Below, in pieces: positions 2,670 to 61,115 of a stretch of 64,000 nt of DNA (the first letter of the stretch is position 1; every line of letters begins with the position of its first letter). Source of the stretch: Squalus acanthias (taxonomy: Eukaryota); contig JASTWF010000415.1 of NCBI GenBank assembly GCA_030390025.1, positions 62,001 to 126,000 of the forward strand, read 5' to 3'. The notes beneath the pieces were generated by a model. That model made no database searches, was not told the DNA's origin, and saw nothing but the letters and a program-made list of their open reading frames with translations. The position numbers were made by a program, and so were the translations under genes.

Positions 2670-2894
<225 letters not shown>

Positions 2895-25743: not shown

Positions 25744-27538
25744 CCAATTTTAACGGCCAGCACCGATTAGCTTGTCATTTACTCACTTTCTGACCAAAAG
25801 GGCCAGGAAGTGGCTGTCTGGCTGTCAGGAACCCGTGGGAATACAAGGTTCGGGGAGGCCCATGGTTTCCTTGTGGGACTGGAGAAGCCCTCCTGCTTTA
25901 CAAGGAACTGTACAATTTTTTGTTAAACTTTCCTGTGTCCTGTTCCCGACAGGTTTGGTCTGGCAGGGAAGCTCCACTCAGGCCTCAGGCTAAAATAGCA
26001 GTCGGGTCCCGCTGGCATCATCGGTCCCGACCTGCATATTTAAAAAGGACCCTGCCGGCTTCAAAACAGGATTCTTAAATGTCTTCGCGATAAAGCAATA
26101 AAATATATTTGCATTTAGCTCAAGCCACTAACCTCTTGCAATATAGTAAAAAAAAGACAATGCCCCTGAAATGGCCCCAATAAGAAAGCTGTATTGCATG
26201 TTTGGTGTCATGTAAAGTGATTTAAGCTTCACAGTGATACAAAAGTGAAGTCAAACCACCAACAGTTTGAGGTTTGGCAGCAGATATGAAACCAGCTAAA
26301 GATAGTCTCACATTGCTGCAGCTTCATATCAGTTGTAGTATAACTACACTTGGTGCAAACCAGTCAGTTTAATTTTAAGATAAAAATATCCCTGGCACTG
26401 CTGGTACACCTTTTTTTAATGTTTTTAATGTTAGGTCTTTTGGTTCTTCAATAACATAATTCACTGCCTTTTGGATGCCAATCAGCAGAGTTCTGTGCAA
26501 CTTCCACCTGATGTCCCCCCCCCGCCCACCTCCGGTCAGGTCAAGAACTGGTTTGAGTAGGGGTTGCACCAAGCGTTAGCGCTCAAATGCTCAGTGTCAT
26601 TGGACCACCTCAAGTAGCTTACAGCACAATTAGAGAATGGTAATTACACAACCTGGTGCTAAGAAATATAGTAAAATGCTCCTTAAAATGTATTTCGATT
26701 GTTAGACTTTAATGTGTTTAAGAGACTCTGTATAAATGCTGGAGTGACATTGTGGACCGAAAGCAGACTCTCTTGTAGACCATTTCATAGCCTTGTGATG
26801 ACCAAAGAATTGTAATTGGACACGCATGGTCTTACTGGTAAAAATATTTCTACCTGCCTCACTGGGTAGCTGAATAAAACGTACCTTGGCTTAAAAACCA
26901 TTTCCAGAAACTTGCCAAGACCACAAGTAGAGGAGGTATGGGGGAGGGGGAGCTTGGTGGCCTCCTCGAGCTCATGGCTAGTATTATCCTTTGCTTTTCA
27001 TTTCTTATCTCCTTATTCACTTGCTCATTCATTTCCACCCAGAAATTGGCAAAGTAAGGATGGACGATCCCAACCCACGTGTACAAAACAGCGTGTAGGC
27101 CCAGACAGCCACTACAGCAACACCCATAGTGCCTGCGTTTGCAGAGCCATGTAAATGACCCAGTACAAGGAGGAACTGGATCACCTCCATCCCTCGAGTT
27201 AAGACAGTGATATCCAGCAGACATCCTCCTGATATACTCCTCTCACCAAGCAACACTTTCAGAAAGTAGACGACACGCACTTTCAGAAAGGGGCAACATT
27301 GGAACATAACTGCACCAAACATTGCAAGGGCAAAGTAAATGTATCACTGCTGCTGGCCTGATGCTTCATTCGAGAAGGGGCAAAACAAGATAGTTGTGGA
27401 GAAATGCTGCTTTACTCATGGGTAATGCTGTGGCTATTGATGGCAATGTTTTTCTTTTCTGGCTAAGGTAGTGGGTATTCACATGCATGACTCTGTACCT
27501 CTGCACTTTCACTTAAAACTTTCTGTGAGAAAACCTAC

Positions 27539-27722
27539 CAATTAATAATTGCACAATGTTTGAACCGGCATACTTCTTCACATCTTCTATCCACCGTGGC
27601 ACAGATTCAAAAGATCCCCTTTTGCTAATGTCATAAGCAATAATCGCACCATTAGCACTTCGATAATAACTCTGTGTAATTGTCCTAAATCGTTCTTGCC
27701 CAGCCGTGTCCCATATCTGCAA
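27539..27722 (-). CDS. RAB43: Rab-43, coding exon 2
   Basis: Acceptor ttccAG (27724-27723); [32 protein letters not shown]...NIVQLLI(G); donor G|GTAGG at 27538. 184 bp, phase 0/1. Confidence 0.96.
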
Positions 27723-29185
27723 CTGGAAGGCAATAGGAAAACACATGAACAATAATGAAAAAGAAGAAACATCACTGCTCAAAATGGGTTCTGTGGTTAG
27801 TTTGGGCACAGGGTGAAATTCAGTTCCCTTTAAATTCTTTACATCTTGACAAAGGATGATGAAACACAGATGCAATAGTTGATTCTAGACTCTGAACTAA
27901 TTGGTTTGCCATTATTACTGCATTTGCCTGGGTTATTTCACTTTTAGTACCTGTTCTTCCCTCAAAACAGAGGTTTCCAAATAATTATGGCTACTGATAT
28001 GTCATATTGACATTTGTTATCAGAGCAAGTTTTTTATTACATATATACAGGATAATAGATACTTAAAAAAGTGTTACTGGAGGGGGGATTCAGGTGATTT
28101 GAAACCATGAGAAAAAACTCAAGTTTTTATGTATATCATCCAAATTGTGAGACATAACACAATTTGTTAACACATGGCAATATTTTTTTTACTCTGTAGA
28201 AATCTTACTGCATTGCATTGCTGTAACTGAAACCCTCAGCTATGCTTTGGTTACTGCCAGACTTGGTCGGCCTCCCATCTTCCACCCTCCATAAACTTGA
28301 GCTCATCCAAAACCCAGCTTCCCGTTTCTTTACCCATACCAAGTCTTGCTTCCCCATCACCCCTGTGCTTGGCTCCCAGTCCACCAACGCCTTGATTTTA
28401 AAGTTCTGCTCCTCATGTTGGGACTAGCTGAAGTGCTCTTGCAGAGAGCCGGCACGGGCTCGACGGGCCGAATGGCCTTCTTCCGTGCTGTAACCATTCT
28501 ATGATTCTATGTTTTCCTATGTTAAAGGCGCTATATAAATGCAAGTTGTATAACACAAATGCTGGTCATTAGGTGGGGAGCTTGAAGACATCAATAATTG
28601 AAAGGGTACTGCCAAGTCAGAGGTGGCTCAAATGTCATAGCATGGGAGTTGACCTGACTGTCATTGTATTATGGCATATTAATTGAAATGATTAATGCCA
28701 TGTGATTCACACTAGAGTATTTTACACTTTATTTTGAAGCCTGAGATGAACATTATACTGCATCTACATTCCAATTCAAACTAGAAAAGCACAATTGAAT
28801 AGATTTTAAAATCTGATGTTGATTAAAAAGATAAAAGAGTTGCTTGAAGAGGTCTGGAAACATCACCTGTTCCCCTCTCAGACAGTGTTGTTGGACGTAA
28901 TAAACACGGGTCTAAAACAAAACGCAATAAAAATGGCAAAACAATCTGCCAATCTGAAGACATTTTTGGTCCATATATCTGTCCTCATATGTAAAATAAG
29001 TTTATTTTGAAAGCATCACAATGGACAGTTTATATTACCTAATCTGAATTTTTTATACAATAACCTGTGTGCATTAACTATCGGAGTATGGAATTGACTG
29101 AATTTCACTTGCTTGTTTTCTTTCCGCCTAACACCATGCTGCCAAATTGCTGCAGGTCTTTGAGGGAGAGCAGGTGAGCCCTTGC

Positions 29186-29209
29186 TATATATATATATAT
29201 ATATATATA
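29186..29209. repeat. (TA)12 microsatellite
   Basis: Direct reading. Confidence 0.95.
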
Positions 29210-29435
29210 GTTGATTGATTCCACACTAACACTTTAATATACACCTTATTCAATAAAAAACAATATTATGTAATGTGATAGATGGCCAACTTCCTCTTCT
29301 CTGCTTGAGATGAGGCGTCAAAAATGTATCTGTTCTTGCCACTTTGGGTGTTTTACAGTATGATGAAACCACATGCTATTTCCTCTCCGGAGACAACAGC
29401 TTAAAGTGGCACAAAGAAGTGAGAGAAGAAATTTA

Positions 29436-30262
29436 CATACATACGAACATACGAATTAGGAGCTGGAGTAGGCCACTCGGCCCTTCGAGCCTGCTCCGCC
29501 ATTCAATAAGATCATGGCTGATCCGATTACTCCACATTCCCGCCTACCCCCGATAACTTTTCATCCCCTTGCTTACCAAGAATTTATCTACCTCTGCCTT
29601 AAAAATATTCAAAGACTCTGCTACCTATCTTTGTGTCATCAGCAAATTTCGCAACCATACCGTCGGTCCCTTCATCCAAGTCATTTATATAAATTGTAAA
29701 AAGTTGAGGCCCCAGCACTGATCCCTGTGGCACACCACTCGTTACATCTTGCCAATCAGGAAATTACCCATTTATGCCTACTCTCTGTTTCCTGTTAGCT
29801 AGCCAATCTTCTATCCATGCCAATATGTTACCCCCTACACCATGAGCTTTTATTTTCCGCAATAACCTTTGATGTGGCACCTTATCAAATGCCTGCTGGA
29901 AATCTAAGTACAGTACATCCACCAGTTCACCTTTATCCACAGCACGTGTTACTTCCTCAAAGAAATTGGTTAAACATGATTTCCCTTGCACAAAACCATG
30001 TTGACTGCCTGATTACTTTGAACTTTTCTAAGTGCCCTGCTATAACGTCTTTAATAATAGCTTCTAACATCTTCCCTATGACAGATGTTAAGCTAACTGG
30101 CCTGTAGTTTCCTGCTTTCTGTCTCCCTCCCTTTTTTCCAATCTAATGGAACCTTCCCCGAATCTAGGGGATTTTGGAAAATTAAAACCAACGCATCAAC
30201 TATCTCACTAGCCACTTCTTTTAAGACCATAGGATGAAGTCCATCAGGACCTGGGGACTTGA
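29436..30262 (-). mobile_element. Internally deleted CR1 LINE
   Basis: GKSCLTN..FFEEVT..VDVLYLDFQQAFDKVPHQRL RT motif plus a CR1 tail. Confidence 0.88.
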
Positions 30263-30649
30263 AATTTACTTTGCCAACACTTCAGTCAAAGTCCAATATG
30301 ACTCATCCTTGACTGCCCGGTTTGCAACACGTTGTTACAATAATACTGGATTTTAAAGAGTCTATTTAACAAGCCAAGTTGCGTGTGTTGGTGCAAAAAA
30401 TTTTTTTAGAAAAAAGTGCAATTGGATTCCTCCTGCCAGCTCGGGGCAACATTAAAATAATAATAATACAAAAACCCTGTTCCAAGCCAGGATTGGAATA
30501 TGGTTCAGGAATAACACTGTAATCCGGCAACTGGAAATGAACGGTCGGCGCTGGAACACTATCATCCGGCTAGAGCAAAAGAGGCTTCAAAATGAAAGCC
30601 TGGTTGAAAGGATAAAGTGGGTGTTGATGGGATTGTGCTGGGGGTGGGA

Positions 30650-31220
30650 GCTGCGCACTTACCTTCACCCGCTTGCCTTGGATCTCCACCGTTTTCATGG
30701 TAAAGTCCACCCCGATCGTGCTGCCTTGTCTCTCCACGAAAATCCCCGACTTGAAGCGCTGGACGACGCAAGTTTTGCCAACGCCGGCGTCTCCGATCAG
30801 AACTATTTTGAACAGAAAGTCGTAAGACTCGTCCGGATCCACAGGCCCCGACATCATTTAGAAGATTTTTCTCCCCAAGTCACGGGCAGTTTCAATCGAA
30901 GGCTCTTGGGCTCATGAACGGCCGGCACCAACTGATTCCCCACCTCCCCAAAAAATAATTATTAAAAAATCCCCGCAAACTTGGGGACATGACGTGGATG
31001 CGAAACCCCGGAACTGACAACGCGGAAGAAATGTGAGAGCGAGAGAGGAGAGATCGGCTGCAAGGCCCCCGCTGGCCGCCTGCCGCAGCGCCTGAGCGCA
31101 ATAACATGCAACCGATAGGGCGCTTTCACACAGCTGGCCCCTGCGCGCCTTCAGGACCCATTGCCGAGCGCCAGCCGCACATGGCTGCCAATGCACAGCT
31201 TCAGCGTTCGGAAACGTGCT
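30650..31220 (-). promoter_or_regulatory. CpG-island-like promoter / 5' UTR of RAB43
   Basis: Locally high GC and CpG density over exon 1 and about 350 bp upstream, in an otherwise CpG-poor window. Confidence 0.7.
30663..30857 (-). CDS. RAB43: Ras-related protein Rab-43, coding exon 1
   Basis: [29 protein letters not shown]...[20 protein letters not shown] (65 codons; P-loop and switch I); donor AAG|GTAAGT at 30662-30661; lies in a CpG-rich region. Confidence 0.95.
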
Positions 31221-32544: not shown

Positions 32545-33110
32545 AGGGATTCCCAGGTGTCGGTGGGGATGTTGCACTTTTTCAAGGAGGCTTTGAGGGT
32601 GTCCTTGAAGCGTTTCCTCTGCCCACCTATGGCTCTCTTGCCGTGTCGGAGCTCCGAGTAGAGCGCTTGTTTTGGGAGTCTCGTATTGGGCATGTGGACG
32701 ATGTGACCCGTCCATCGGAGCTGATCGAGCGTGGTCAAAGCTTCGATGCTGGGGATGTTGGCCTGAGCGAGAACACTGATGTTGGTGCGCCTATCCTGCC
32801 AATGGATTTGCAGGATCTTGAGGAGGCAGCGTTGGTGGTACCTCTCCAGCATTTTGAGGTGCCTGCTGTACATGGTCCATGTCTCTGAGGCATACAGGAT
32901 GGCGGGTATCACTACTACTCTGTAGACCACAAGCTTGGTGCTGGGTTTGAGGTCCTGGTCTTCAAACACTCTCTTCCTCAGGCGACCAAAGGCTGCACTA
33001 GCACACTGAAGGCGGTGTTGGACTTCGTCATCGACATCTGCCCTTGTTGGCAGTAGGCTCCCGAGGTATGGAAAATGGTCCACGTTGTCCAAGGCCTTGT
33101 CGTGGATTTT
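32545..33110 (-). mobile_element. RTE-clade LINE, C-terminal ORF fragment
   Basis: VDHFPYLGS..ASAAFGRLRKRVF..LYASETWT..RWTGHIVHMP..RLPKQALYSEL..GGQRKRFKDTLK. Confidence 0.9.
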
Positions 33111-33969
33111 GATAGACTAAGTAAGTGGGCAGTAAGGTGGCAGATGGAGTATAATGTAGGGAAATGTGAGGTTATTCACTTTGGTAGGAAGAATAGAAAA
33201 ATAGAATATTTTTTAAATGGTAAGAAACTTTCAAATGTTGATGTTCAGAGAGATTTGGGTGTCCTCGTGCAAGAAACACAGAAAGCTAGCATGCAGGTAC
33301 AGCAAGCAATGAGGAAGGCAAATGGCATGTTGGCCTTTATTGCAAGGGGGTTGGAGTATAAGAGTAAGGAAGTCTTGCTACAATTGTACAGGGCCTTGGT
33401 TAGACCACACCTGGAGTACTGTGCACAGTTTTGGTCTCCTTATCTAAGGAAGGATATACTTGCCTTGGAGGCGGTGCAACGAAGGTTCACTAGATTGATT
33501 CCTGGGATGAGAGGGCTGTCCTATGATGAGAGATTGTGTAGAATGGGCCTATACTCACTGGAGTTTGGAAGAATGAGAGGTGATTTCATTGAAACATACA
33601 AGATTCTGAAGGGGATTGACAGGGTAGATGCTGAGAGGTTGTTTCCCCTGGCTGGAGAGTCTAGAACTAGGGGGCATAGTCTCAGGATAAGGGGTAGGCC
33701 ATTTAAGACCGGAGATGAGGAGGAATTTCTTCACTCAGAGGGTTGTGAATCTTTGGAATTCTCTGCCCCAAAGGGCTGTGAATGCTGAGTCTTTGAGTAT
33801 ATTCAAGGCTGAGATAGATAGATTTTTGGACTCTAGGGGAATCAAGGGATATGGAGATCGGGCGGGAAAGTGGAGTTGAGGCCGATGATCAGCCATGATC
33901 TTATTGAATGCCGGAGCAGGCTTGAGGGGCCGTATGGCCTACTCCAGCTCTTATTTCTTATGTTCTTAT
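33111..33969 (+). mobile_element. CR1 LINE 3' part
   Basis: WQMEYNVGKCEVIHFG..RDLGVLV..KANGMLAFI..LVRPHLEYCAQFWSP; TTCTTATG tail. Confidence 0.92.
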
Positions 33970-42792: not shown

Positions 42793-43346
42793 TCAATTAG
42801 ACAACATCAGTATTACCTTAAATGGCACTTCAGCACCGCACTAAACTTCCTACAATGGATGTACTTGCCATTTAGAAAACAATCATTTGGATTAGCTTCA
42901 GACACAATGAAAACCAAATACTCAGCCTTCTTAACATCATTGTTGATTTATTGTTTGTGTTTTCCCACTTTCTTTCTCTCATTTTTCAACTCTCAACCTT
43001 TCAGCTGTGAAATAGGAGTGAGAAAGGAAGGTGTGGAACCCTCAAAGATTCTGTTGGTAATTCTGCAGTGTAGGGCAACAGCAGGACATACACACTTCAG
43101 TGGGTGGGAGGAAAGGAAATATTGGGCTGGACTTTGCGACACCTACGGGTGCGTACGAGGTGTTATAAGGCCATTGTTATAGCTTTCCCTGACTAATTAT
43201 CTTTATCCTTTATCTGTCAATCATTCAATTGGCCTAGTTGACCCAGATTTTTAGTCACGATAATTGGAGAGTGCAAGTCATAAATGTGGACTTTAGATTG
43301 CCCTTAAAATGTTAATCCATGTGTCATATAAAAACACACAGCTGGC

Positions 43347-44102
43347 TCAATGTAACTTGATTTTAATGTTATGCTTTGAGTGCAATGTACTTAATACCTG
43401 TGGCAAAATCTCCATACTTTCACAGGGAAAGGGTTTCTCTATCAAGATGTCACTTGTCCATTCAATACTTGACTCAAGTTCTGCCATCTCCCAAATCCTC
43501 TCATCTTGTATGCACCTGATTGGACTTTGTTTTATTAAAGGGGTGAGTTCAAATTCATTAAAACCAATATTTGGAGTAAATATGTATGGTATTGATTTGA
43601 CACAGGTGAGAGAATACATTATTAGAATGAAAAGAAGCAGATAGAGAAGACAAAGAGCAATACTTCCAAAGTATAAGTCTTGACATCGGTATTGGTTATG
43701 GGACCGACAATTTGAATATTCATTTCCTCTTAGTTCTGCCACAGGCGTTATTCTAGGAGTGAAACAGGTCACATTAGGATGAACCATTGCTGGTGGATTC
43801 TGCAGCCACTGTTTGAGGTATGCGATATGGCAATCACAGTTCCAGACATTGTTGTGGAGGCTAATAGTCCGCAGGCTCTGCAATTTGTCAAAAGTACCTG
43901 GAGCAACTGTAGTTAGTAAGTTGTTGTGCAGATAAAGCTCTGTTGTAGTTTCTGGAATAAATGGTATTTCCTGTAGGCCTCTGAAGCTGCAGTTAATTGC
44001 CATACCCTGAGAAGTAGATTTACATTTGCAGGATTCTGGGCATAGTTCAGCATTGGAAGACCTCAAGAGAAAGAGCATGGCTAAACCTGGAGAAACCATC
44101 AT
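43347..44102 (-). CDS. Platelet glycoprotein IX-like LRR membrane protein, long cytoplasmic tail (251 aa, single coding exon)
   Basis: Signal peptide; LRRNT CPESCKC..C; LRR ELYLHNNLLTTVAPGTFDKLQSLRTISL; LRRCT WNCDCHIAYLKQWL..C..C; TM about aa 146-168; tail about 83 aa. Acceptor ttattttcAG (44105-44104) 1 nt before the ATG. Confidence 0.88.
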   Translation of the reverse strand: MMVSPGLAMLFLLRSSNAELCPESCKCKSTSQGMAINCSFRGLQEIPFIPETTTELYLHNNLLTTVAPGTFDKLQSLRTISLHNNVWNCDCHIAYLKQWLQNPPAMVHPNVTCFTPRITPVAELRGNEYSNCRSHNQYRCQDLYFGSIALCLLYLLLFILIMYSLTCVKSIPYIFTPNIGFNEFELTPLIKQSPIRCIQDERIWEMAELESSIEWTSDILIEKPFPCESMEILPQVLSTLHSKHNIKIKLH

Positions 44103-44279
44103 CCTGAAAATAAGTTAATAAAAGACAAAGAATAAGATCAGTAAATAATATATATATATAAAACATTCTCTATATGTTTGTGTATGTGTATGTAGAACAA
44201 CTTTGTTACATGACAAATTATCAAAAACATGTGAACTCTTTGGACTCACTTTGTTCTGATCTCCTGCAGAATAGACTAA

Positions 44280-44990
44280 GGGGGGAAAATTGGGTTGCTT
44301 TGCGCCTCCCGTTAGCGCTCTAAGAGGGCGCTAACGGGGCGCAAAGTAACTAGCGCCCAGGCACGGCGCCACCCACGCCTCCCGCAAAATTCAGCGGGAG
44401 GTTAGCGGCGGCGCTAACCGGTAGCGCCCCACGGCGCTGCGCCACCAGCGATGACATCATCGCCGTGCACAGCGCCCCGCTCGCGCCCCGACCGCAATCT
44501 TCGGGAGCGCCCCCTGACTTACGGCCGGAAGCTACGTCCGACGGGGTCAGGGGGGCCTACCTGCGGCCGGGGAGGCGCAATTTAAAGGCGAGGTGCGGGG
44601 CGGCCATTTTTGTTGCTGGCCACCTGCCAGCACCTGCCTGCGCTCCCGTCCCCAACCTCCAGAAACGCCCCCCCACCGCGAAGTGCCGGCTGCGCTCCAA
44701 GAGCCCGGCACTTCTCTTGAGAGCCGGGCTCTTTTGCCAGCACTCCCGATCCCCGGAGGCCTAGCTGGGCCCCGGGTCGCGCTGCGCAAGGCCCCTCCTC
44801 TTTAAGAAGGGGAGGAAGGCCTGCAATACCGCGGCACATAACGCCTCGATATTAACTCGCAGCGCCCCAAGAGGGATGCGGGGTGCTTCCAGTAGCGCCC
44901 CGCTTCTCTCTTGGGGCGCAACCACCGAAGTTCCGGCGCGGGGGCGCTAATTTTTCTGGGACTCTTGGGGCGCTACTCAATTTTTAGCCC
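44280..44990. mobile_element. GC-rich Harbinger-type MITE with TAA target-site duplication
   Basis: TAA at 44277-44279 and 44991-44993; imperfect TIRs ggggggaaaattggg / ctcaatttttagccc; many agcgccc/gggcgct subterminal repeats; CpGs largely retained. Confidence 0.8.
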
Positions 44991-47437
44991 TAAATGTCTA
45001 ATCTACTGTCTATTTGAAGATAAAGTAAATCAAAGTTAATGTTAATCACATAGTAGAGCTCTATGGTAAGTATATTTATAAAAAATTAAATGCAGTTCTT
45101 TGACTCAGATTTTTTAGTTTGGAAGCGACAATTGTAGACGGCTAGAACTGGTTCAGACATTAAGTAGACTACTGTATGCCAGCCGCAGCCATCAGCTAGG
45201 TATCCCCTATGATATTTTGGGCATAAAGGTCAAGAAATTGTGTCGCGCAGAACCCATTTTTCAGGTGAGAAACAGGCGCTGAGGAGTCTAATATGGTGTG
45301 TGTTGTGCACGCGCTCATCCCACACCAGGTATTTGCCGCAAGCCATAAAGGTTAGGGTGCCCTGTAGTCATCCAGGGCGCCCGCCTGAAACAGGAGCTAG
45401 ATCTATTGCCTATGAAAATTGGGGGCTTACCGCTTATTTCAGGCCCCGTTCCAATATTGGTTCGCACGCATGTTGCAAACAGTTTTTTCAGGCGGACAGC
45501 AGCCAAACCAGCGGTCTTTAAAGGAATCGCAGGAGGCTGCCACCAAAAACGTAAGTAAGATTTTTTTTCCTAACCTCCCGTTTGCTCTGCTGTTTTTCTT
45601 AAAGGATGATGGCAGCCACAATAGGTGAAAATGTCATTTTGCTATTCTCTTATTGGTTTTGCAGAATTAGGCAGTCTGTTTTATGGCATCTCTGATATCA
45701 GCTTATAGCCAACGGATGTGTAGGTCACTTTAGTATTTGGAGAATGCAGTGTGGCTGCAATTAATTTCAACCCTAACTATCTTGTAATCTTGTGGATCGT
45801 TCTGGGTAGATGAACAAAGATGGCATGAATGGCCTTCCTCATCTGTAATTATTTTGCGAATTGGACCTCTCTAACCCTTAATTGCTGTTCACGCAATATT
45901 TTAGGGAAACCATTGTTGCTGTTCTAGACGTGTGTTGAAAACTGGGAATCACTGTCCATACCAAACGACAATATCACTGTATGTGGCATTGGTTTCCCCA
46001 AATGGTAAGCTGCCAGAAAATTCTAACACCTGAGAGGTTGCAACTGCTCATCTCTAACCATAAGCCAGACTTTAGCAATGTCCTTTGTTCCTTGGTACCC
46101 TGCCCTATTTTCCCCTTCTCAACTCAAGGGAGACTAATTGTTGTTCCCTCCCACCACCCCCACAGAGATCAACTAACTCAGTACAAACTGGATTAAATGT
46201 GGGACTTCCCGCTCTGTAGAGGCTAGCTTGCTTGATAAATTTGCTGAGTCACGGAGCGAACAGTCAGCATTTTCTGAATGCGCAAGGGTGAAGACAGGCA
46301 CATTTTCAATTCCGAGAGACCAGTAAACCGTTAACTTTTCCAACAACTGACATCTAAAATTCTGAAAAAGCCAATACTTGACAGAAGGCCATTGCTTCCT
46401 TTGCCTTCCTCTGTCTCCAAACTATTTGGTGTCAACCATCAAAATTTGGTCCCAATTCAGAGCGATGTTTTAAATTTCCTTCTGAATCTCCCATGGCATC
46501 GTTGACAGTGAGTTGGAAGTTACGCTGTTGCAAGTGGCTTGCTACGATGAGAAATTGGCAGAGGGGTGCACATCTCTACTGAAAGGATTTGGAAAGAGGT
46601 TTGCAAGTGCTCTGCTCAGACACAGCAGAGTAGCCTGAAAATTTTGCTTCCCACTCTAGTTAGATCAATAAATACATTTGTTGTCCTCATATACCACACT
46701 TACTTAAATAAATAAAACGGAATGTCTCACAGGGTGGAGAGCAGCTCTTTACCTAACATATAAAATTGATACTCTGTTCCATCTGTTTGGAATAAGGGTT
46801 TTTATAATGAGTCAAGAAACATGAAACTTCAGAAAGATTAAACTAATTTCATCTTTCCTTCTCTGTAACACATTTTAGTTCTCTACATGCTCCTGCTTAA
46901 ATAAACATACAGTATTTAAATTTAGGATTTTTATTCATAACTTCCCTGCAAAGTTGAACTTGTTGCCAATATTATTATTTTTTCTGATTGTTTTGAGTAA
47001 ATAGAAGCAATAAAATGTACATAAGTAAAAGCAATGCAGCTATTAGAACCGTTTAGAATAAAAATTAAACCATATCAAATTTCAAAACAGAAAGTTTGAC
47101 TGGTCACACATGATGGCCCCAAAATCCCATTCCATTTTTGTCATTTCTGGAGCATTCAATCGGAGCAATTTATTTCTCTGGATGGCAAATTGGGGTGGAA
47201 TTTGTGTCCGTGCTTTTCCTGTCCCAAGAATGATGCAATCGAATCTCCAACTACAATTTAGCCCTTTCCACGATCCACCCACTGAGCCCCCATGCTGCTG
47301 ATTTTAATATATGTAAATGAGGGTCAGTGGCATCGGAGCTCTGCATTTCTGGAACATACGCTCGCAATACACTGGGGATATGTTAGATTGGGAAATATAA
47401 GCCAGGACAGCCAAGACTGACAGAAGTGAGAAACTTT

Positions 47438-48019
47438 GGGGTCGATTTTAACCTGTTCGAATTGGCGTTAAAGAGGTGCTCATGGCCTCAAAATGGGGTC
47501 GGAAGACTTACCACCCTGTTAACGCCAAAGCCATTTTTAACGGGCAACGTGCCCACCAGTTTCAGGCATTTGGCCCTTTTAATATGCAAATAAGAGTCCT
47601 ATCACATACATTGCTATTTTGTGAGACAACTGGGCATAGTGCGCACCGAGCACGCTCTGACCAGTATTACGGGCCGTACAGCCGAAGAGAACCTAAATAA
47701 GGTCAGTTTGAAACTATTTTTGTAAGGCCTGGAGGAGCAGGAGTGCTCCACTGGGCCTCGCAGAATAATCTGGGTCACTCCCGCCTCTCCACAGTCATGA
47801 ATGACCCCGCCCCCCCAACCACCAGACTTGCCTTGCTGCCGATGGAGCAGCCTCTGGCCCACCCAATATTGCGCAGTCCTGAATCCGCCGAGCTGCATCA
47901 AGACACCTGTTTGGGGCGGGCAGCTCACTGGTTCCCAGCTAAATGAGGCCCAGGGCCTCCAAATGGCTCCGGCCTCTTCACAGCCAATGTTTAGCCGCCT
48001 GAAAGTTAAAATCTACCCC
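47438..48019. mobile_element. Harbinger-type MITE
   Basis: 15-bp TIRs ggggtcgattttaac / gttaaaatctacccc (1 mismatch). Confidence 0.8.
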
Positions 48020-50596
48020 AAATTTGATCCTGAAAACTCCTGCAAATTTGAGTACTAATTACTGCAGCTTGGAACAAGTTTTCCCAGTGATTCTTTTTTG
48101 GCTTTGAGCCTGGACATTGTGTGTTTAGAAGGGGTGGGACGTGGGGGGGGAGGGGGGGGGGGGAGCGGTGGCTAAATATCCTGATGGTTTCCCTGTCCCA
48201 CAGGCTTTTGACTGCCTGTGGGACTGTGAAACTACTAGGAAATTTAGATCCCGTTCCCTCAAGAGCAGGTATGGGATTCCCAATGGACATGCCTTTCTAT
48301 GCCATTATCAAATAAAGGACGAATCGTTCAATCAGTACCAATCCTAGAACATCACAACACATAGGAATTCTTTGCTCTACATGACCATACCAATAATAAT
48401 CACTTGCTTGAATATGTCAGCACAAAATAAGTGCATCTTTTCCTATATGAATCCATGAATAACAAAGCACGGCATGTGTACAACTAACTCCAAAGTGAAC
48501 AGAGGCCAACTTCCTCTTTCCTCACACTGAGTTTCCCCTGGATGACTTAATGTGCCCTTCTTCCTCCCATTCCCGTGCTTCTCCCAATATGAGGACCTGG
48601 TGTTGCCTCCTATGTGCCACTGGCATGGATCTCTGATGGAGAAGGCCAAATGCCTGGCATGTGCTGTCGTCCTGAGAAATGACACCTTTAGGCAGGCATA
48701 TTTCAGCTGCCACCACTCCACTGGGCCTTGGATTTGCGTCTCCAATGATCAGCAAGATGGCTGGATTAGGCAGCTATAAGAATCTGAGAGCCCTGAGAAA
48801 TAGAAGCATGCATTTCAGTCCACCAGGTCCGAAAACCAGTATTCAGGGTGCTGTCTATTCTATACCAGAGGTACAGAGGTACAGGAGGAGGTGGTACTAA
48901 TTGGTCCCTGTCCCCTTCTTAGGTGGAGGTCTGCTGCAGATTCCAATCAAGCGGTCCCCTGCTGTATTGATATTTTTGGAACAAAGAAAAAGCTCTCTTG
49001 ATGTGGGTTGTGGACTCCTGAGACACACCTGTCAGATGCTGCACATCCTTGCAGACTGACCTCAGAGACTGTAAATAGGTGTGATGTTCCTCAAACATCC
49101 TTCTTTTCAAGCGAGTGCCCATGAGGTCTGGATCCCACAACTCTAGAGCCATGGGCTGCCTTCGCCTCTTTTGGGAAGGTGGCATATCCTCATCCACTCT
49201 TACGGTTCCCTCGTACTCATTAACACTATCGATTTGCCCCTTGGTGAAAATATCTGAGGTAGTGAGTGGGAGTGATGAAGTAAGTGATGTTGTGGGTAAG
49301 ATTGTGACAGAGGAACATGCCAGCGAGCTGCCTATTGCTCCTCGCAGTTCTCCGTCTTTATGAAAATGAGGCTCAAGCAAAAATATTGAGGGCGCCTCGA
49401 GCCTCACCATTCAGACACAGGGATCGATCCCTGCATTCCACGTTCATCCAGAAATAGGCACGCCCGAATTTCTAAGCCACAGTTTTCTATCAGTTCAACA
49501 TACTCATTCTTATTTATCTTCAGTAAATAAATACATTGCATCTCATAGCTTAGACGAACTATAATAGCCAGCTAATGTCAGTCCAACATCAAATTAAAGA
49601 TTCTCACTTGAACCTATATTAGAACAATGCTAGTCCATAAATGACAGTCCCAAAAGTACTATTTATAGGTGAGATTTTCTTCATAGCCCAAACATCAGAC
49701 AGTTAATACACCTACCTTTATATCTTATATAAACTTGCAAAGTTGTCAAATGATTTTCCTGCATACTTCGCAAGTAAGAGAGCTACGTCTCCCCAGCAGC
49801 TGGAACCTGGTTCTTAGTGATACGTTCAGATCAGCACAAAGCAGTAGATTCAATTAGTTGCCGTCAGTTATACGTCTACGTGACCAGTTCCAAATAGCTA
49901 CGGCTTGTTTCAAACAGGCAGAAGCGTGACAAACATTTTAATCTCCAATATGATCAGGCAGCTGCAGTAATCTGACTTGCGGTTAGGCTGAAGCTATACC
50001 ATGTGATGGAGAGGAAACCTAATGTTTATGGAAGATAAGAGTTCCTTGACGAATACATTTAACCACCGCCTAGCTTTTAAGAAATGTCTTGAATCCCTAG
50101 TACATTGTATTATTAGGGTTACAACATTAAAGCTACAATCTTTTTGTATTTCTGCCAATTTTGTTAAAAAAAAAAAATTAATTGGTGTGTACACTACAAA
50201 GTATGAGGTGGCCAAGTGTACTGCTTATATGGTATTAAGTACACACAAGAGTTGTTGTATGGAAGTTTAAAAAAAAATTACAGCAAGAGGCACAAAGCTA
50301 TGATGACTTTGATGCAGGAACAGATAGGCACAGTATTCATTGGCTGATGTGCTGCAGCTAACTAATGAACCATTTCACCGAGAAACCTGCTTTTAAAATC
50401 AACATATTGTTACTTATTCCAAACACTTTTTACAAACATTTCTCTTTTTTCCCCCTCTATTTTCTCCCTCTCAAGTTAATCCCTGCCCACACATTATCCT
50501 GTGCAGTTGGAAGGGCTACATACACAGTTAATCACATTTAATTTTGAAGATGCTATCCATAAGGCTCCTTGGTTGATCTGTCAGTGGGAGTTCTTA

Positions 50597-51857
50597 GGGC
50601 TGAATTTTGCCGGCGCTCAGAGGGCGGGTTCAGAGGCGGGTCCGCTGTCAAAATAGCAAAGATTGACAGCGGGTAGGGAACCCGCTGTCAACCCGCCTCC
50701 ACGCGAGTCCCCCAGGTGTCGGGTCTGTCGGTGCTGAACAGACCCGACACCAAGCGGCGGGGAAGGTAATTCACATCATTAAATGGGTTGTTAACATCCA
50801 ATTAACTGTTATTTTAAGCCTACATTTCAATTTTACGTGCTCCCCCACGGGAGACCCGCTGCTCGGGGAACACATCAGCTCAGCATGTCGTGAGTGGATT
50901 CAGCATTGAATTATCTCATGACCTGACAGCTGCCAAAGTTGTATAAAAGATCCCATGTTACAGCTGTTCACTTTCAAAGCTCAGAAACTGTTGGATACTG
51001 CATTTGGAAGACATATTGAGCTTTCTGCAGCTTGCAAGTGTTTGGAGCCAACTCTCTATCCAGTGCCACGTCATTGGAACATTGGTTAAACCACCCAAGT
51101 GCCTACCCTTATGTGTTGTTAGTTGGTATGCTTGCAGTAGGATGAGGGTGAGTGTGAGAGGTGGTTAGTGAAATGGGGAAGTGATAATGTAGATAGAGAG
51201 GGATGGGTGGAGTTGCAAGGTAAGTTGGTGTGAGTAAAGATGTGCAGGAGTAGGGTAGGGAAGGCAGAGTGATAGGGATGTGATGAGTGGCACAGCAGGA
51301 TGAGGTTGAGTGTGGCTTGGCAGTAACGTTTCGTGATCTACTGAGATCATTAAAAGGCTTGCGTCACTGCAGCCAGGTCCTCCTAACGACATCCCTGCTT
51401 GTGCCCTCCTGTGCAATGTGCAACCAGGCTGCGTTGATCTCCTGGGGAGGTCTCTTCATATGGAGGGAGTCATGGGAGAGCCTGAGTGCAGCCGTGCATC
51501 TTTGTGCAGTGCTTGTCAGTGTTTACAGCTCCTCAATGTTGTAGAACACTGACAGCAGAACTGTCAAAATCAATTTGGACATGGCCCCTTTAAGGAAACC
51601 AAATGACGTCATCAGACCAGCTTCCTATTAATTAGCTGGGAACCTCGCAGGGCGGGTTTAACAAGCGTAAAATTTTAATGTAAAATCACTTGGAAAGTGC
51701 AGGCTGCAGTAGGTAGTGGGTTGGGACCGCAACACCGAACCCGGCCGCTCCGGACCCGCCTCGGTCAGCGAAATCGCAGCCTTAGATTTGTGGTCAAGAA
51801 TCCTCTCATAGCAGTTTTCCCTCCTTCTTTCAGACCACTTCTGGCAAAAATCGCCCT
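50597..51857. mobile_element. Non-autonomous Harbinger derivative with a Myb-like ORF remnant
   Basis: TIR-like gggctgaattttgcc / ggcaaaaatcgccct; minus strand at about 51330-51420 reads SRDVVRRTWLQ*RKPFNDL (SANT recognition-helix region). Confidence 0.7.
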
Positions 51858-52060
51858 CTACAAGATGTGCAAGTACAATGTGAGTCAAAATTAAGATTGC
51901 AGTCTTGGAATTCCTTTCAAGAGTGTTTACATTTTTGGGATTGTCAGCCTGTCCAATTTTGTTTATATAGATGTGATGATCAGATTATTAAGGATGATTC
52001 AGACAAATCTACAATGGCTGGAACACAATAACATACAGCCTGCAAAAAACAAATGCAATA

Positions 52061-52675
52061 CAACAACAACAACTTGTATTTATATAGCGCCTTTAATGTA
52101 GTAAAACGTCCCAAAACATCCTAAGACAAAAAATTTGATATAAGGAGAAATTAGGGCAGGTGACCAAAAGCTTGGTCAAAGAGGTAGGTTTTAAGGAGCG
52201 TCTTAAAGGAGGAAAGAGAGGTAGTGAGGCGGAGAGGTTTAGGCAGGGAATTCCAGAGTTTAGGGCCGAGGCAACAGAAGGCATGGCCACCAATGGTTGA
52301 GCGATTTTAATCAGGGATGCTCAAGAGGGCAGAATTAGAGGAGCGCAGATATCTCGGGGAGTTGTGGGCCTGGAGGAGATTACAGAGATAGGGAGGGGTG
52401 AGGCCATGGAGGGATTTGAAAACAAGGATGAGAATTTTGAAATTGAGGCGTTGCTTAACCGGGAGCCAATGTAGGTCAGCGAGCACAGGGGTGATGGATG
52501 AACGGGACTTGGTGTGAGTTAGGACACGGGCAGCCGAGTTTTGGATGACCTCAAGTTTACGTAGGGTAAACCGTGGGAGGCCGGCAAGGAGTGCATTGGA
52601 ATAGTCAAGTCTAGAGGTAACAAAGGCATGGATGAGTGTTTCAGCAGCGGATGAGCTGAGACAAGGGCGGAGACA
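52061..52675 (-). mobile_element. L2 LINE 3' end with (CAA)n tail
   Basis: Closely similar to the reverse complement of 61548-61981, extending further 5'. Confidence 0.9.
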
Positions 52676-52679
52676 ATAA

Positions 52680-53230
52680 GGGGGGATTTTAACTTCTACT
52701 GCCCAGCAGAGTTAAATTTGAGTTGGTCGACTTATCGCCTCTTTCCCGCTCCGCCATTCTTCCTGGGGGCCTTTCACTGGACAGCCCAGGCACTCGCCTG
52801 AATCAGCCAGGTGTCTCATGAATCTATGTAAATTGGGGGCCTATGATGCACATAGGACCTAGATGCAATTTTAATGGCCTACTGGGCAGCTTGTGCGTCG
52901 TGGATGCTCCACTCTCGGTAAAATCTTGTGAGCAAGAAGAGCCCCGGAAATGTATGTGTTGAAATTATTTTGGTGGGGCCCGGAGGAGTAGGATTGCTGA
53001 TCCGGGCTCCGGGAGAATAACATGGGCCACTGAGAGACGCCCCAGCCCCCATTTCTGCGATTGCACACCTGTCCTCGGACCTACATGTTCGCCTAATATT
53101 GCACCAGTCCAGAGCTACAGCGGGACACCCATTCGAGGCGAGGAGCTGCTTGGTGCATGCTAATGAGGCCCGGCCCTCAAACTGGGCCAGGGCTCGCGCT
53201 GCGCAGCTGCACAATAGTTAAAATCCCTCC
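52680..53230. mobile_element. Harbinger-type MITE
   Basis: TIRs ggggggattttaac / gttaaaatccctcc. Confidence 0.7.
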
Positions 53231-53605
53231 TAGAATGCTTTGAACATGTATGTAATTCACACAAGTGGCTAGGATGTGGTAAAGCTTCCTGAAGACTTAA
53301 TAACACTGGAGTAAAGATTCCGCTGTGCTGCTCGGTGGTGTGTGCTGCACACTCCCGGGCAACAATTTTACATCCGTTAAAGTTAGTGGAGAGAAAATCA
53401 TGGGCTGGGAGTGCGCAATTTAGTGAAATACATTCCCAGCACGAACCAAGGAGAGACGCAGTGAAAGTTTTGCTTTTGCATTGCAACACATCATGTGGTG
53501 AACTTTGATTTAGTGCTCTCGGTGCAGTCCTTTGAGTGACGGAGTACTTATTGAGAATTCAGGCAGCATTCTTTTAAAACTCGTTCAGGCTTTGTTAGAT
53601 ATACT

Positions 53606-54274
53606 GGGATAGAAATTGGTCCTCATTGTGCTCATTTTACGGGCGTAAAATAGCCGCAAAACGGACCAATGTTGGGCTCAACGTCCTGTGCCCAATCTGC
53701 GCTAGGGGTACAGATGCCGTCACAGACATAGGCGACTGCCCAGGCGGCTGTGGCGCCCACCGGAAACAGGCATTAGGCCCCTTGTGTGTGTGAATGAGGG
53801 GCCTTATGCCTGTTAGAGGAATCCTGCAGGAAATTGGGCAGCGCTGAGCAGAGAAGGAGCTGGGCCTACTCTGCGCAGGTTTCCACAGCGATTGCTGCGG
53901 CCTAAGCAGCAGCCACCACCAAAAAGGTAAGTTTGTTCTTCTTTTAAACCTCCCTGTGGAGCTGGCAAGAGCCGGAGTGCTTCTCTAGGCTTCACAGCAC
54001 TCCTTAGGGCCGCTGCCTGCCCGCAATCGCCCCCCTCTTGTTCGCCTTCCCCTCCCTGGGACTTATGTGAGGGTCGCTTCCGCCGAGGTAGATAGTAATT
54101 GGGCAGGCTGCCTGTGGACATGCAATAGGAGCCGGCAGCTCGGCCCTATTACTACAATGAAGCCTGAGGCCCAATTTCTGGCGAGCCTTGGATCTGTTGG
54201 TTCAGGCACGTACTGTGCTGGAAGCTCACCATCAGTTATGCGCCTGAAAACGGACCATAACAAACTTCTACCTC
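53606..54274. mobile_element. Harbinger-type MITE with 3-bp TSD (ACT)
   Basis: ACT at 53603-53605 and 54275-54277; imperfect TIRs gggatagaaatt / aacttctacctc. Confidence 0.7.
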
Positions 54275-54423
54275 ACTGAGTGCAGTAAATTTAATGAACC
54301 CATTTACAGTATTGTTACATAACAATCCTTCCCCAAGTGACAACATGAACCATCATTATCTTATTGTTCAACTAAAAATGAGAATAACAGAGCATGAAAC
54401 AATCCTATGCGGTTTTTGCATCC

Positions 54424-54477
54424 TTTATTTACAAATAACAGGAATTCAGGAAATTCTGGTATTATAAAACATTTATT
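54424..54477 (-). terminator. Candidate polyadenylation signals of the short-tail GP9-like gene
   Basis: Two minus-strand AATAAA (plus-strand tttatt at 54424-54429 and 54472-54477), about 0.9 kb past the stop codon. Confidence 0.4.
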
Positions 54478-55367
54478 TCTTCACACAGTTGTAATAGTAT
54501 TGCATTTTTCTAGCAACATGAAAAGCACAGCAAGGTTATAGTTTGTTATTATAAATAAAAACTGCAGATGAAACATGTTAACTTGTTTTTCAAATTCTGA
54601 TAATTGACAGTAGAAATTTACAATCATTTTTGTAGATACTATATAGGAAAAAAAAGCTGAATATTTCTTTGACACTCATTATTTTCCTTCTTTTCAGCCC
54701 TGCTCTGCCACATACTAAGGTGCAGGCAACCAACTTCAAGCTGTATTGAAGATAATGAGTGTGAATGTATGTTGTACCACTGCAGTTTGTGGGCACATTT
54801 TTAAATAGCACGATGTGTTTTGATACAGAGGAAAAATGATGACGGAGAAAGAATATGATTTGGGTTGCTGAAATGATGAGAGGCTTGATTTTGCAGCTAT
54901 AAGCCGATTATTTAATGTAGATTGTGATCACAGAACTGGAGGGCCGGAGTATGAGATTGCAGAGTAATAGGTATCTGGAATAGTCTCCCAGCAAAAGCAA
55001 TTAATATTGTGTCAATTAACTACTTGTTAGTCATGCTGTCAGGCAGAGGCTTAAAAAGAGGGGGAGAAAATCTAAAAATATACTGGAGGTAATTTTGACT
55101 TTGTGGGATAGCGTAATACGGGTGATAGCAAATCGGCAGCCCGTTTTACATCTCTCCCGATTTTTATTTCCATTGACTTCAAAATTACTCCCTCCCCCAT
55201 TATTACAAAAACACTCCAACCGTTTAATAGTCAAAAGACTAGTACTGAGGCACTTTAATGTAGGGGAGCCCTTCTGTAGTAATGCTGCTTTACTGAGCAT
55301 ATTAGGGAGAACACTGATGGGAATGCACTGTTAGTCAAATTGAGAAAATACTTTCTCAAAGTATTTT

Positions 55368-55964
55368 CTATTGGCTTTTTAATCTTCTTCTGGGGCTTTC
55401 TGGCAGAAAGTAAGAATCTGCCATAAAAACCCAGCAGCTTAAGTGCTTTGCAATGTAAACTGTGCACACCAACAAAATAAGAACAAGCAAAGATGCAGCA
55501 AACAGCCAAATATCTCTGTGAATAAATGGTTTACATTGCATCGATTCATGGCTCTCACAGGCAGGATACTCATTCCCTGTCAGGCTCAATATCTGTTTGC
55601 CATTAATTAAAACAGGGGTTGAACAAAGAACTGATGGATTAGAGTCGAGTTGTTGGTCTTCTAGCCAGTGTTTGAGATATCCAATATGGCAATCGCAGTT
55701 CCATGGGTTGCTGGAGAGGTCTATCTTCCTCAGGTTCTGAAGCTTGTCAAATGTGCCTGGAGCAACTGTGGTTAAATGGTTGTTCTGTAGGTAAAGTTCA
55801 ATTGTGTTTTCAGGGAGAACAGGAACTTCCTTCAGTTGCTTTGCGCTGCAGTCAACTTTGAAGCCCTGGTCATTGAATTTTGTGCATTGGCAGGATACTG
55901 GGCACAACTCGACACTTGGCAAATTGAGCAAGAAAAATAATGCTAACCCACCAGAGGCCAACAT
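55368..55964 (-). CDS. GP9: Platelet glycoprotein IX (GPIX/CD42a)-like, short tail (198 aa, single coding exon)
   Basis: Signal peptide, LRRNT-LRR-LRRCT, NPWNCDCHIGYLKHWLED (compare GPIX NPWHCDC..YLRLWLED), LTG motif, TM about aa 152-172, tail about 26 aa. Acceptor tttatcacAG (55972-55971) 6 nt before the ATG. RAB43 is the neighbouring gene of human GP9. Confidence 0.85.
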   Translation of the reverse strand: MLASGGLALFFLLNLPSVELCPVSCQCTKFNDQGFKVDCSAKQLKEVPVLPENTIELYLQNNHLTTVAPGTFDKLQNLRKIDLSSNPWNCDCHIGYLKHWLEDQQLDSNPSVLCSTPVLINGKQILSLTGNEYPACESHESMQCKPFIHRDIWLFAASLLVLILLVCTVYIAKHLSCWVFMADSYFLPESPRRRLKSQ

Positions 55965-56039
55965 CTTGAGCTGTGATAAAATTAATGGTTGTAAAACAAT
56001 ATATTAAAAGACAGCTGAAATAGCTAATTGACATTCACT

Positions 56040-60134: not shown

Positions 60135-61115
60135 CAGGAGTTCCTCAGGGCAATGTCCTCGGCCCAACCATCTTTAGCTGCTTCATCAATGACCTTCCCT
60201 CCATCATAAGGTCAGAAGTGGGGATGTTCGCTGATGATTGCACAGTGTTCAGTTCCATTTGCATTTCCTCAGATAATAAAGCAGTCCGTGCCTGCATGCA
60301 ACAAGACCTGGACAACATCTAGGCTTAGGCTGATAAGTGGCAAGTAATATTTGTGCCACACAGGTGCCAGGCAATGACCATCTCCAACAAGAGAGCGTCT
60401 AACCACCGCCCCTTGACATTCAATGGCATTACGATTGTTGAATCCCCCACCATCAACATCCTAGGGGTCACCATTGACCAGAAACATAACTGGACCAGCC
60501 ACATAAATACTGTGGCTACAAGAGCAGGTCAGAGGCTGGGTATTCTGCGGCAAGTGACTCACCTTCTGACTCCCCAAAGCCTTTCCACCATCTACAAGGC
60601 ACAAGTCAAGAGTGTGATGGAATACTCTCCACTTGCCTGGATGAGTGCAGCTCCAACAACACTCAAGAAGCTCGACACCATCCAAGACAAACCAGTCCAC
60701 TTGATCGGCACCCCATCTACCACTTTAAACATGCAATCCTTCCACCACTGACACAAAGTGGCTGCAGTGTGCACCATCTACAAGATGCACTGCAGCAACT
60801 CGCCAAGGCTTCTTTGACAACAAATCGCAGCCCAAACACGCAACCTCTACCACCTAGAAGGACAAGGGCACCAGGCGCATGGGAACACCACCACCTTCAA
60901 GTTTACCCTTCAAGTTACACACCATCCTGACTTGGAAGTAGATCGCCGTTCCTTCATCGTTACTGGGTCAATCCTGGAACTGCCTCCCTAACAGCATTGT
61001 GGGAGTACCTTCGCCACAGGGACTGCAGCAGTTCAAGAAGGTGGCTCACCACCACCTTCTCGAGGGCAATTAGGGATGGGCAATAAATGCTGGCCTTGCC
61101 GTGAATGAAAAAAAA
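60135..61115 (+). mobile_element. CR1-group LINE 3' part (same family as 9061-10135)
   Basis: GVPQGNVLGPTIFSCFINDLP..MFADD; ILGVTIDQKHNWTSHI; gggcaataaatgctggcc..gaatgaaaaaaaa tail. Confidence 0.9.

What the first reader, a model, noticed from the sequence alone, without database searches (positions are those of the whole stretch)
43347..55964. Tandem pair of intact GPIX-like genes with very different cytoplasmic tails
Seen: two intact, same-strand LRRNT-LRR-LRRCT-TM genes about 11 kb apart, each with one coding exon. The LRR/LRRCT core is 36/46 aa identical (ELYL..YLKxWL), but one tail is about 83 aa (ending MEILPQVLSTLHSKHNIKIKLH) and the other about 26 aa (ending PESPRRRLKSQ). Established: mammals have a single GP9 with an almost absent tail, acting as a subunit of the GPIb-IX-V VWF receptor. 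Inference: thrombocytes of this fish may assemble alternative GPIb-IX complexes, with the long-tail subunit adding signalling or cytoskeletal docking. From memory (unverified), ray-finned fish gp9 ends in a similar LPQ..LH.KHNIKIK motif. If so, both forms could be ancestral to gnathostomes and reciprocally retained in teleosts versus tetrapods.
Basis: partly seen in the sequence, partly recalled or inferred. Interest (0 to 1): 0.75.

Follow-up and report, generated by a model that had tools for sequence, protein, structure and literature searches.

The report
Ancient twin platelet-receptor GP9 genes
This shark carries two side-by-side copies of GP9, a subunit of the blood-clotting receptor GPIb-IX; the pair likely dates to the first jawed vertebrates, zebrafish-type fish and humans likely kept different copies, and the long copy ends in a conserved signal predicted to hold it inside the cell until the receptor is assembled.

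Summary
Confirmed. Two intact GP9 (GPIX) genes lie on the minus strand near RAB43: a short-tail copy (198 aa, tail about 26) upstream of a long-tail copy (251 aa, tail about 83).

Both forms occur in chimaera, skates, sharks and sturgeons; a frog has both, its long type shortened. Neighbouring accessions and fused sturgeon gene models point to a conserved tandem pair. Lungfish, coelacanth and all teleost hits are the long form; human GPIX fits the short form better. A shark-only duplication is rejected; gnathostome age is likely, though the tree alone is weak.

(1) The long tail ends in a conserved 22-residue block finishing K-x-K-x-x-COOH (30 of 31 motif-bearing proteins), the COPI ER-retrieval consensus. 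It is therefore more likely an assembly or trafficking control than a signalling dock.
(2) Both non-mammalian forms keep a juxtamembrane cysteine aligned with GPIbβ Cys122, which human GPIX lacks, so they may bond covalently to GPIbα.

Expression of the two copies in this species and all function are untested. Ten literature searches found no description of the pair.

The parts
43347..44103 (-). Main coding exon of the long-tail GP9 paralog (GP9-L; 251 aa; ATG at 44102; splice acceptor AG at 44105-44104): signal peptide, LRRNT-LRR-LRRCT, TM about residues 148-168, 83-aa tail
43347..43415 (-). Conserved C-terminal 22-residue block plus stop: predicted short helix followed by K(-5)-x-K(-3)-x-x-COOH, a COPI-type dilysine motif
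   Evidence: helix 232-244 at low pLDDT (53-58)
43683..43685 (-). Codon for Cys140 of GP9-L, the unpaired juxtamembrane cysteine equivalent to GPIbβ Cys122
49712..49764 (-). Coding part of an upstream exon of GP9-L (in-frame ATG, 18-residue optional N-terminal extension, GT donor at 49711); suggests GP9-L has its own 5' exon between the two genes
   Evidence: tblastn match to the Stegostoma isoform X2 N-terminus, E 7e-9
42947..42952 (-). Nearest AATAAA downstream of GP9-L (candidate polyadenylation signal)
   Evidence: motif only
55368..55970 (-). Main coding exon of the short-tail GP9 paralog (GP9-S; 198 aa; ATG at 55964; acceptor AG ends at 55971): same domains, TM about 152-172, 26-aa tail with K at -3 only
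55533..55535 (-). Codon for Cys144 of GP9-S, the juxtamembrane cysteine equivalent to GPIbβ Cys122
55163..55168 (-). Nearest AATAAA downstream of GP9-S (candidate polyadenylation signal)
   Evidence: motif only
27513..30857 (-). RAB43 (first two coding exons near 30.86-30.66 kb and 27.7 kb): synteny marker of the GP9 locus
   Evidence: best PDB hit Rab-43, E 7e-32; human GP9 and RAB43 share one 140-kb window (PMC6591479)

Best explanation
The two genes are tandem GP9 paralogs that likely arose before cartilaginous and bony fish split and likely serve as interchangeable GPIX subunits of the thrombocyte GPIb-IX receptor, with the long copy's conserved C-terminal KxKxx predicted to return unassembled subunit to the ER until GPIbα/β assembly masks it. 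Shown: two intact genes near RAB43; both forms in chimaera, skates, sharks and sturgeon; the motif's conservation and fixed distance from the C-terminus; the juxtamembrane cysteine. Inferred: (a) a single ancestral duplication, about 0.85; (b) teleosts kept the long copy and mammals the short one, about 0.7; (c) both fill the same slot in the complex, about 0.65; (d) the tail works through COPI as an assembly checkpoint or surface-level control, like the dilysine signal of FcεRIα, about 0.5, the short amphipathic helix perhaps holding the lysines near the membrane; (e) the extra cysteine lets non-mammalian GPIX bond covalently to GPIbα, about 0.45.
For: Two A. sinensis gene models fuse short then long, the order seen in the window (P0062, P0063). 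Sturgeon S and window S end in the same 6 residues.
With the distal tail left out, profiles trained on bony vertebrates sort 12 of 12 cartilaginous proteins correctly; in the reverse test all 8 long-type score above all 6 short-type on L-minus-S. L and S are two sides of one branch in three trees (74/75, 79/72, 75/83); elasmobranch-only origin rejected, p-AU 0.0007.
Human GPIX scores 144.8 bits on the S profile and 134.6 on the L profile, while several other top LRR hits score higher on L. Zebrafish Gp9 runs past residue 207, where mouse and human rows are empty (PMC9244818 supplement).
Of 71 stored proteins, 31 match a pattern that leaves the two lysine positions free: 31 of 31 have K at -3 and end two residues later, 30 of 31 have K at -5 (many are near-duplicates). 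In 12 chosen lineages K-3 and K-5 are 12 of 12, positions -1 and -2 show 6 different residues each, and tails run 70-110 aa. This is the rule for COPI binding (PMC3521961). GPIb-IX subunits associate in the ER and need each other to reach the surface (PMC8508601); a dilysine signal masked by assembly is known for FcεRIα (PMC2120483 abstract).
The juxtamembrane Cys is in 33 of 34 aligned rows and aligns with GPIbβ Cys122, where human GPIX has Val; Cys122 bonds to GPIbα (PMC4284388).
Against: The tree alone does not reject a duplication confined to cartilaginous fish (p-AU 0.36 and 0.30), L/S support is never starred, and there is no GP1BB outgroup or mammalian row. In the cartilaginous-trained test 5 of 8 long-type bony proteins still score higher on S in absolute terms, and the frog long-type proteins sort as L only with bony-trained profiles. 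The human S-over-L margin is only about 10 bits. Absence of S in teleosts, lungfish and coelacanth, and of L in mammals, was not tested on genomes: the search saw only 50%-identity representatives and gave 26 hits.
The conserved block is 22 residues, longer than COPI needs. Dilysine signals are reported to weaken far from the membrane (PMC4831884 discussion). The helix's hydrophobic moment beats 95% of shuffles in only 5 of 12 sequences.
The motif is missing in three frog long-type proteins, the bichir long-type model P0042, the Stegostoma and Rhinoraja models and the unnamed P0043 and P0050. Elasmobranch L (4 of 4) has Ser where human GPIX has the TM Asp135 (the role of Asp135 is recalled). 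No expression data for this species were obtained.
Confidence: 0.58

Rival explanations
1. The long tail is a positive docking site for a signalling or cytoskeletal partner, and the terminal lysines are part of that site, not a COPI signal.
For: Seventeen residues upstream of the lysines are also conserved, with L-19, L-12 and K-9 invariant in 12 of 12; AlphaFold places a helix at 232-244 after a low-confidence linker, as in many short docking motifs.
Against: No conserved Tyr, Ser or Thr in the block; the fixed two-residue distance to the C-terminus with free last residues is the COPI signature; human GP9 mRNA, and a Gp9-eGFP fusion (tag presumed C-terminal from its name), both restore thrombocyte markers in the zebrafish mutant (PMC9244818), though by overexpression and counting cells only; no Pfam or Atlas match for the tail.
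Confidence: 0.2
2. Both paralogs sit in the same receptor: GPIbα's two cysteines bond to different small subunits (for example GPIbβ and one GPIX), giving four different chains where mammals have one α, two β and one IX.
For: Both paralogs keep the Cys122-equivalent; both have been kept side by side in sharks, chimaera, sturgeon and frog; elasmobranch L differs from S at the TM polar position; annotators called some L proteins 'Ib beta chain-like'.
Against: Only one form was found in teleosts and one is known in mammals, and human GP9 substitutes for zebrafish gp9, which fits a shared slot; both score far better on GPIX than on GPIbβ (76 vs 54 and 96 vs 54 bits) and lack GP1BB_C. GPIbα and GPIbβ of this species were not available.
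Confidence: 0.15
3. The pairs arose by independent tandem duplications in cartilaginous fish and in bony fish from a single long-tailed gene, each followed by tail loss in one copy.
For: AU tests do not reject a chondrichthyan L+S clade (p 0.36, 0.30); core identity between copies is higher in sharks (29-36 of 46) than in sturgeon and frog (22-23 of 46).
Against: Same short-then-long order and the same terminal hexapeptide of S in shark and sturgeon; cross-lineage profile sorting without the tail; best trees give one L/S split; slow shark evolution (recalled) explains the higher identity; only 18 of 34 shared core codons are identical, so no recent conversion.
Confidence: 0.1
4. In this shark one copy, most likely the long one, has left the GPIb-IX complex or is expressed outside thrombocytes.
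For: Elasmobranch L lacks the TM Asp and the window copy has a 3-residue deletion in LRRCT; Stegostoma L models stop before the motif.
Against: Intact frame, splice sites and conserved upstream exon; top fold matches are GPIb-IX chains; the likely L-type gene in zebrafish is needed for thrombocytes (PMC9244818); Callorhinchus L has an NP_ RefSeq record (that NP_ implies transcript support is recalled).
Confidence: 0.08

Closest known systems
Mammalian GPIX (GP9), subunit of GPIb-IX-V (PDB 8WFS)
   Same: Single-LRR ectodomain with 8 capping cysteines, one TM helix, locus beside RAB43; best full-length match for the short copy (E 3e-26) and top fold match for the long copy.
   Different: Two genes instead of one; tails of 26 and 83 aa instead of 8; an extra juxtamembrane cysteine; a C-terminal KxKxx in the long copy.
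Teleost gp9 (zebrafish Bernard-Soulier model, PMC9244818)
   Same: Named teleost gp9 proteins carry the same terminal block and KxKxx as the window's long copy.
   Different: Treated in print as the plain counterpart of human GP9; here it is likely the other paralog. Teleost forms lack the acid at -24 seen in 7 of 7 non-teleost long tails.
GPIbβ (GP1BB)
   Same: Same fold; juxtamembrane Cys122 aligns with Cys140/144, and Gln129 with the TM polar position.
   Different: Much lower scores than GPIX, no GP1BB_C domain, different locus (22q11 in human; PMC4284388).
Dilysine ER-retrieval signals on receptor subunits (FcεRIα; KxKxx cargo such as yeast Emp47)
   Same: Type I membrane subunit of a multi-chain receptor assembled in the ER; lysines at -3 and -5.
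   Different: Here the motif is 70-110 residues from the membrane and sits behind a conserved helix; function untested.

Membership tests
GP9/GPIX | Signal peptide, LRRNT, one LRR, LRRCT, TM with GPIX as best match | tested here: met
   named homologs are GPIX or GPIX-like
GP9/GPIX | Locus next to RAB43 | tested here: met
   RAB43 exons about 12.5 kb away; human linkage PMC6591479
GP9/GPIX | Very short tail and no cysteine bond to GPIbα (mammalian form) | tested here: not met
   tails 26 and 83 aa; ninth ectodomain Cys in both. This is the variant character, shared with non-mammalian proteins annotated GP9
GP9/GPIX | TM Asp135 (importance recalled) | tested here: inconclusive
   present in the short copy, Ser in the long copy and other elasmobranch L, Asp in chimaera, coelacanth, sturgeon and frog L
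GP9/GPIX | Thrombocyte expression and assembly with GPIbα/β | not tested
   no expression data obtained; partner sequences not available
GP1BB/GPIbβ | GP1BB_C domain and best match to GPIbβ | tested here: not met
   no GP1BB_C; 54 bits against 76 and 96 for GPIX
GP1BB/GPIbβ | Juxtamembrane cysteine (Cys122) | tested here: met
COPI dilysine (KxKxx) signal | Lys at -3 and -5 with a free C-terminus on a type I membrane protein | tested here: met
   long copy; 30 of 31 motif-bearing proteins; rule from PMC3521961. Short forms: K-3 in 19 of 24, K-4 or K-5 in 0 of 24, so not met for them
COPI dilysine (KxKxx) signal | Binds α/β'-COP and confers ER retrieval | not testable with these tools
   needs peptide binding or a reporter assay
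AP-binding dileucine [DE]xxxL[LI] (consensus recalled) | Acid four residues before a leucine pair | tested here: inconclusive
   acid at -24 in 7 of 7 non-teleost long tails but Ile-Leu in 6 of them; Leu-Leu without the acid in 5 of 5 teleosts

The most novel reading that the evidence does not exclude
The ancestral jawed-vertebrate VWF receptor had two GPIX chains, both able to bond covalently to GPIbα like GPIbβ, one carrying a COPI-read assembly lock; sharks, sturgeons and frogs still build such mixed receptors, teleosts and mammals kept opposite copies, and the mammalian 1:2:1 receptor with a tailless, cysteine-less GPIX is a derived simplification. Zebrafish gp9 is then a paralog, not the ortholog, of human GP9.
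Probability: 0.3. Interest if true: 0.75.

Novelty: new variant of a known kind. Interest (0 to 1): 0.58.

Why it matters
GPIb-IX is the main platelet VWF receptor, and GPIX is described as a tailless subunit with no intracellular partner (PMC8976409). A hidden pair of paralogs would change how the zebrafish Bernard-Soulier model is read and give a natural swap experiment. It also offers a testable sequence signal for why this receptor leaves the ER only when assembled, and suggests how the 1:2:1 chain ratio and its disulfide pattern evolved. The proteins are already annotated as GPIX or GPIX-like in databases; the pairing, the dilysine motif and the Cys122 equivalence were not found in print in the searches run.

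Tried and rejected
No genome is held for this window, so GP1BA/GP1BB and wider synteny could not be checked. Run search: no RNA holder listed; no read layout was obtained, so expression in this species is open.
The tail-only word search found just the whale shark protein among 2 candidates (insensitive), and the Atlas gave no usable hit for the tail. The two-sequence C-half profile found no PDB chain and retrieved no named mammalian protein.
GATA/ETS/RUNX density: 39 of 637 windows pass the threshold and none marks the long gene's upstream exon, so it is uninformative. No similarity between that upstream region and the rest of the window. Upstream exons matching the whale shark X1 or Carcharodon N-terminal extensions were not seen in the visible part.
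The nurse shark spleen paper names a thrombocyte cluster, but GP9 is in neither its text nor the one supplement held; gene tables not held might bear on co-expression.
Recent gene conversion rejected as the cause of the 36/46 core. GP1BB identity rejected. No complex was predicted: partner chains were unavailable and a pass between the paralogs would only echo solved GPIbβ/GPIX structures. dN/dS was not possible without orthologous DNA. Earlier-findings look-ups were empty.
Literature searches for the pair found no description; the library lacks most subscription papers.
Full report
Observation. Two intact ORFs lie on the minus strand at 43347-44102 (251 aa, 'L') and 55368-55964 (198 aa, 'S'). 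They are 46% identical over 186 aa, 36/46 in the core, with tails of 83 and 26 residues. Each main exon starts at a splice acceptor just before its ATG and has an AATAAA downstream. L has an upstream exon at 49764-49712 that matches a Stegostoma isoform and splices in frame, so it probably has its own 5' end between the two genes. The S protein is 88% and 86% identical to Heptranchias and Pristiophorus GPIX, so the source is a shark.

Identity. Both match human GPIX better than GPIbβ (76 vs 54 bits; 96 vs 54 bits) and lack GP1BB_C. The L model's top fold hits are chains of the GPIb-IX cryo-EM structure (mean pLDDT 64.5, tail mostly under 50). RAB43 lies about 12.5 kb away; human GP9 and RAB43 fall in one 140-kb window (PMC6591479, one table row). 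Both genes are GP9.

Distribution. Word searches gave 6 and 12 proteins; a profile of the two C-terminal halves gave 26 representatives, of which P0045 is unrelated and P0043 was not looked up by name. Both forms: Callorhinchus, Amblyraja, Leucoraja, Stegostoma, Acipenser, Huso, Bombina and probably Erpetoichthys, with consecutive accessions or equal contig lengths in most. Two A. sinensis models fuse S then L, the window's order. Only L was retrieved for lungfish, coelacanth and four named teleosts; only S for Pogona. These absences are not shown, since no vertebrate genome could be searched.

Age. Trees used ectodomain, TM and juxtamembrane columns only (164 of 491), leaving out the distal tail. 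L and S were two sides of one branch with all 34 rows (74/75), without 3 long-branch or fragmentary rows (79/72) and without 10 rows including the teleosts (75/83); never starred. A clade of the two window copies (p 1e-5) or of elasmobranch L+S (p 0.0007) is rejected; a chondrichthyan L+S clade is not (p 0.36, 0.30). Cross-lineage profiles sort 12 of 12 cartilaginous proteins correctly and rank 8 of 8 bony L above 6 of 6 bony S, though with a bias toward S. With shared order and the shared S terminus in sturgeon, one duplication before the gnathostome split is the simplest reading (about 0.85). The frog 'GPIX-like' proteins fall on the L side and sort as L with bony-trained profiles, but have tails of about 40 aa without the terminal block. 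Human GPIX scores 144.8 on S and 134.6 on L, against a background that leans to L. The zebrafish alignment in PMC9244818's supplement has a row from residue 207 with no mammalian counterpart (the residues are a picture and were not seen). Reciprocal retention in teleosts and mammals is thus likely (about 0.7).

The long tail. It is a variable linker (tail 70-110 aa) ending in a 22-residue block. Of 71 stored proteins 31 match it; all end two residues after a lysine, and 30 have a second lysine at -5 (near-duplicates included). In 12 chosen lineages from chimaera to teleosts both lysines are invariant and the last two residues are free. That is the KxKxx rule: lysines at -3 and -5, fixed spacing to a free carboxylate, and only weak binding with the -3 lysine alone (PMC3521961, passages). 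GPIb-IX assembles in the ER and needs all chains for surface expression (PMC8508601, passages), and FcεRIα uses a dilysine signal masked by assembly (PMC2120483, abstract only). I therefore favour an assembly or trafficking control (about 0.5). Against: the block is longer than COPI needs; distance from the membrane may weaken such signals (PMC4831884, passages); amphipathicity is modest (5 of 12 beat 95% of shuffles); 8 of 24 listed long-type proteins lack the motif. Human GP9 and a Gp9-eGFP fusion rescue the zebrafish mutant (PMC9244818, section 13 and passages): the tail is not needed for thrombocyte counts under overexpression, which fits a negative control signal better than an essential dock. 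Short forms keep K at -3 in 19 of 24 but never a second lysine, possibly a weak relic.

The extra cysteine. Both window proteins have nine ectodomain cysteines. The ninth is in 33 of 34 aligned rows and aligns with human GPIbβ Cys122, where human GPIX has Val128. Cys122 is the bond to GPIbα Cys484/485 (PMC4284388, passages). Non-mammalian GPIX may thus be covalently tied into the receptor (about 0.45), which opens the mixed-complex rival. The partner of this cysteine is not shown.

What is known. Databases already name these proteins GPIX or GPIX-like. Reviews describe GPIX as having an 8-residue tail and no intracellular partner (PMC8976409, PMC4284388; passages). A vertebrate hemostasis survey treats GPIX as one gene (PMC4486697, passages and supplement search). 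Six searches aimed at the pair listed no description; most subscription papers are outside the library. PMC10529500 was seen as one passage and a supplement search.

Verdict. A real, ancient paralog pair: a new variant of a known system with two concrete, testable predictions (COPI signal; covalent link) and a consequence for the zebrafish disease model. Expression and function are untested. Interest 0.58.

Noticed in passing
window 2670-4173 (+): Two exons that look like the end of an HDHD5/CECR5-like hydrolase gene (name recalled; no Pfam or NCBIfam hit for the last exon).
   Followed up: partly
window 10847-12814 (+): Fragmented Harbinger-type DDE_Tnp_4 transposase.
   Followed up: partly
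window 48919-49410 (-): 163-aa ORF in the long gene's intron with no Pfam hit; probably repeat-derived.
   Followed up: partly
window 44290-45000: GC-rich stretch with a 136-aa open frame and no Pfam hit in the long gene's intron; probably an interspersed repeat.
   Followed up: no
window about 43750 (-), GP9-L LRRCT: In-frame 3-residue deletion relative to all five other cartilaginous long forms aligned.
   Followed up: no
P0046 (unnamed): Divergent GPIX-like protein with the juxtamembrane Cys and TM Asp but neither tail type; candidate pre-duplication relative, taxon unknown.
   Followed up: partly
P0050 (unnamed): Long-type protein grouping with the frog GPIX-like proteins (87/89 to 95/90) with an unrelated tail; may show the long copy surviving in another tetrapod group.
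   Followed up: partly
P0002, P0019 (Stegostoma), P0004 (Rhinoraja): Long-form models that stop early or change frame before or inside the terminal block; real loss or assembly error not resolved.
   Followed up: no
teleost long forms P0035, P0038, P0047, P0048: First LRRNT cysteine is missing, unlike other GP9 proteins.
   Followed up: no
window 9267-9953, 13466-14014, 32484-33788, 35386-37100, 52307-52711, 60329-60930: Broken LINE-like reverse transcriptase pieces (one weak RVT_1 hit).
   Followed up: no
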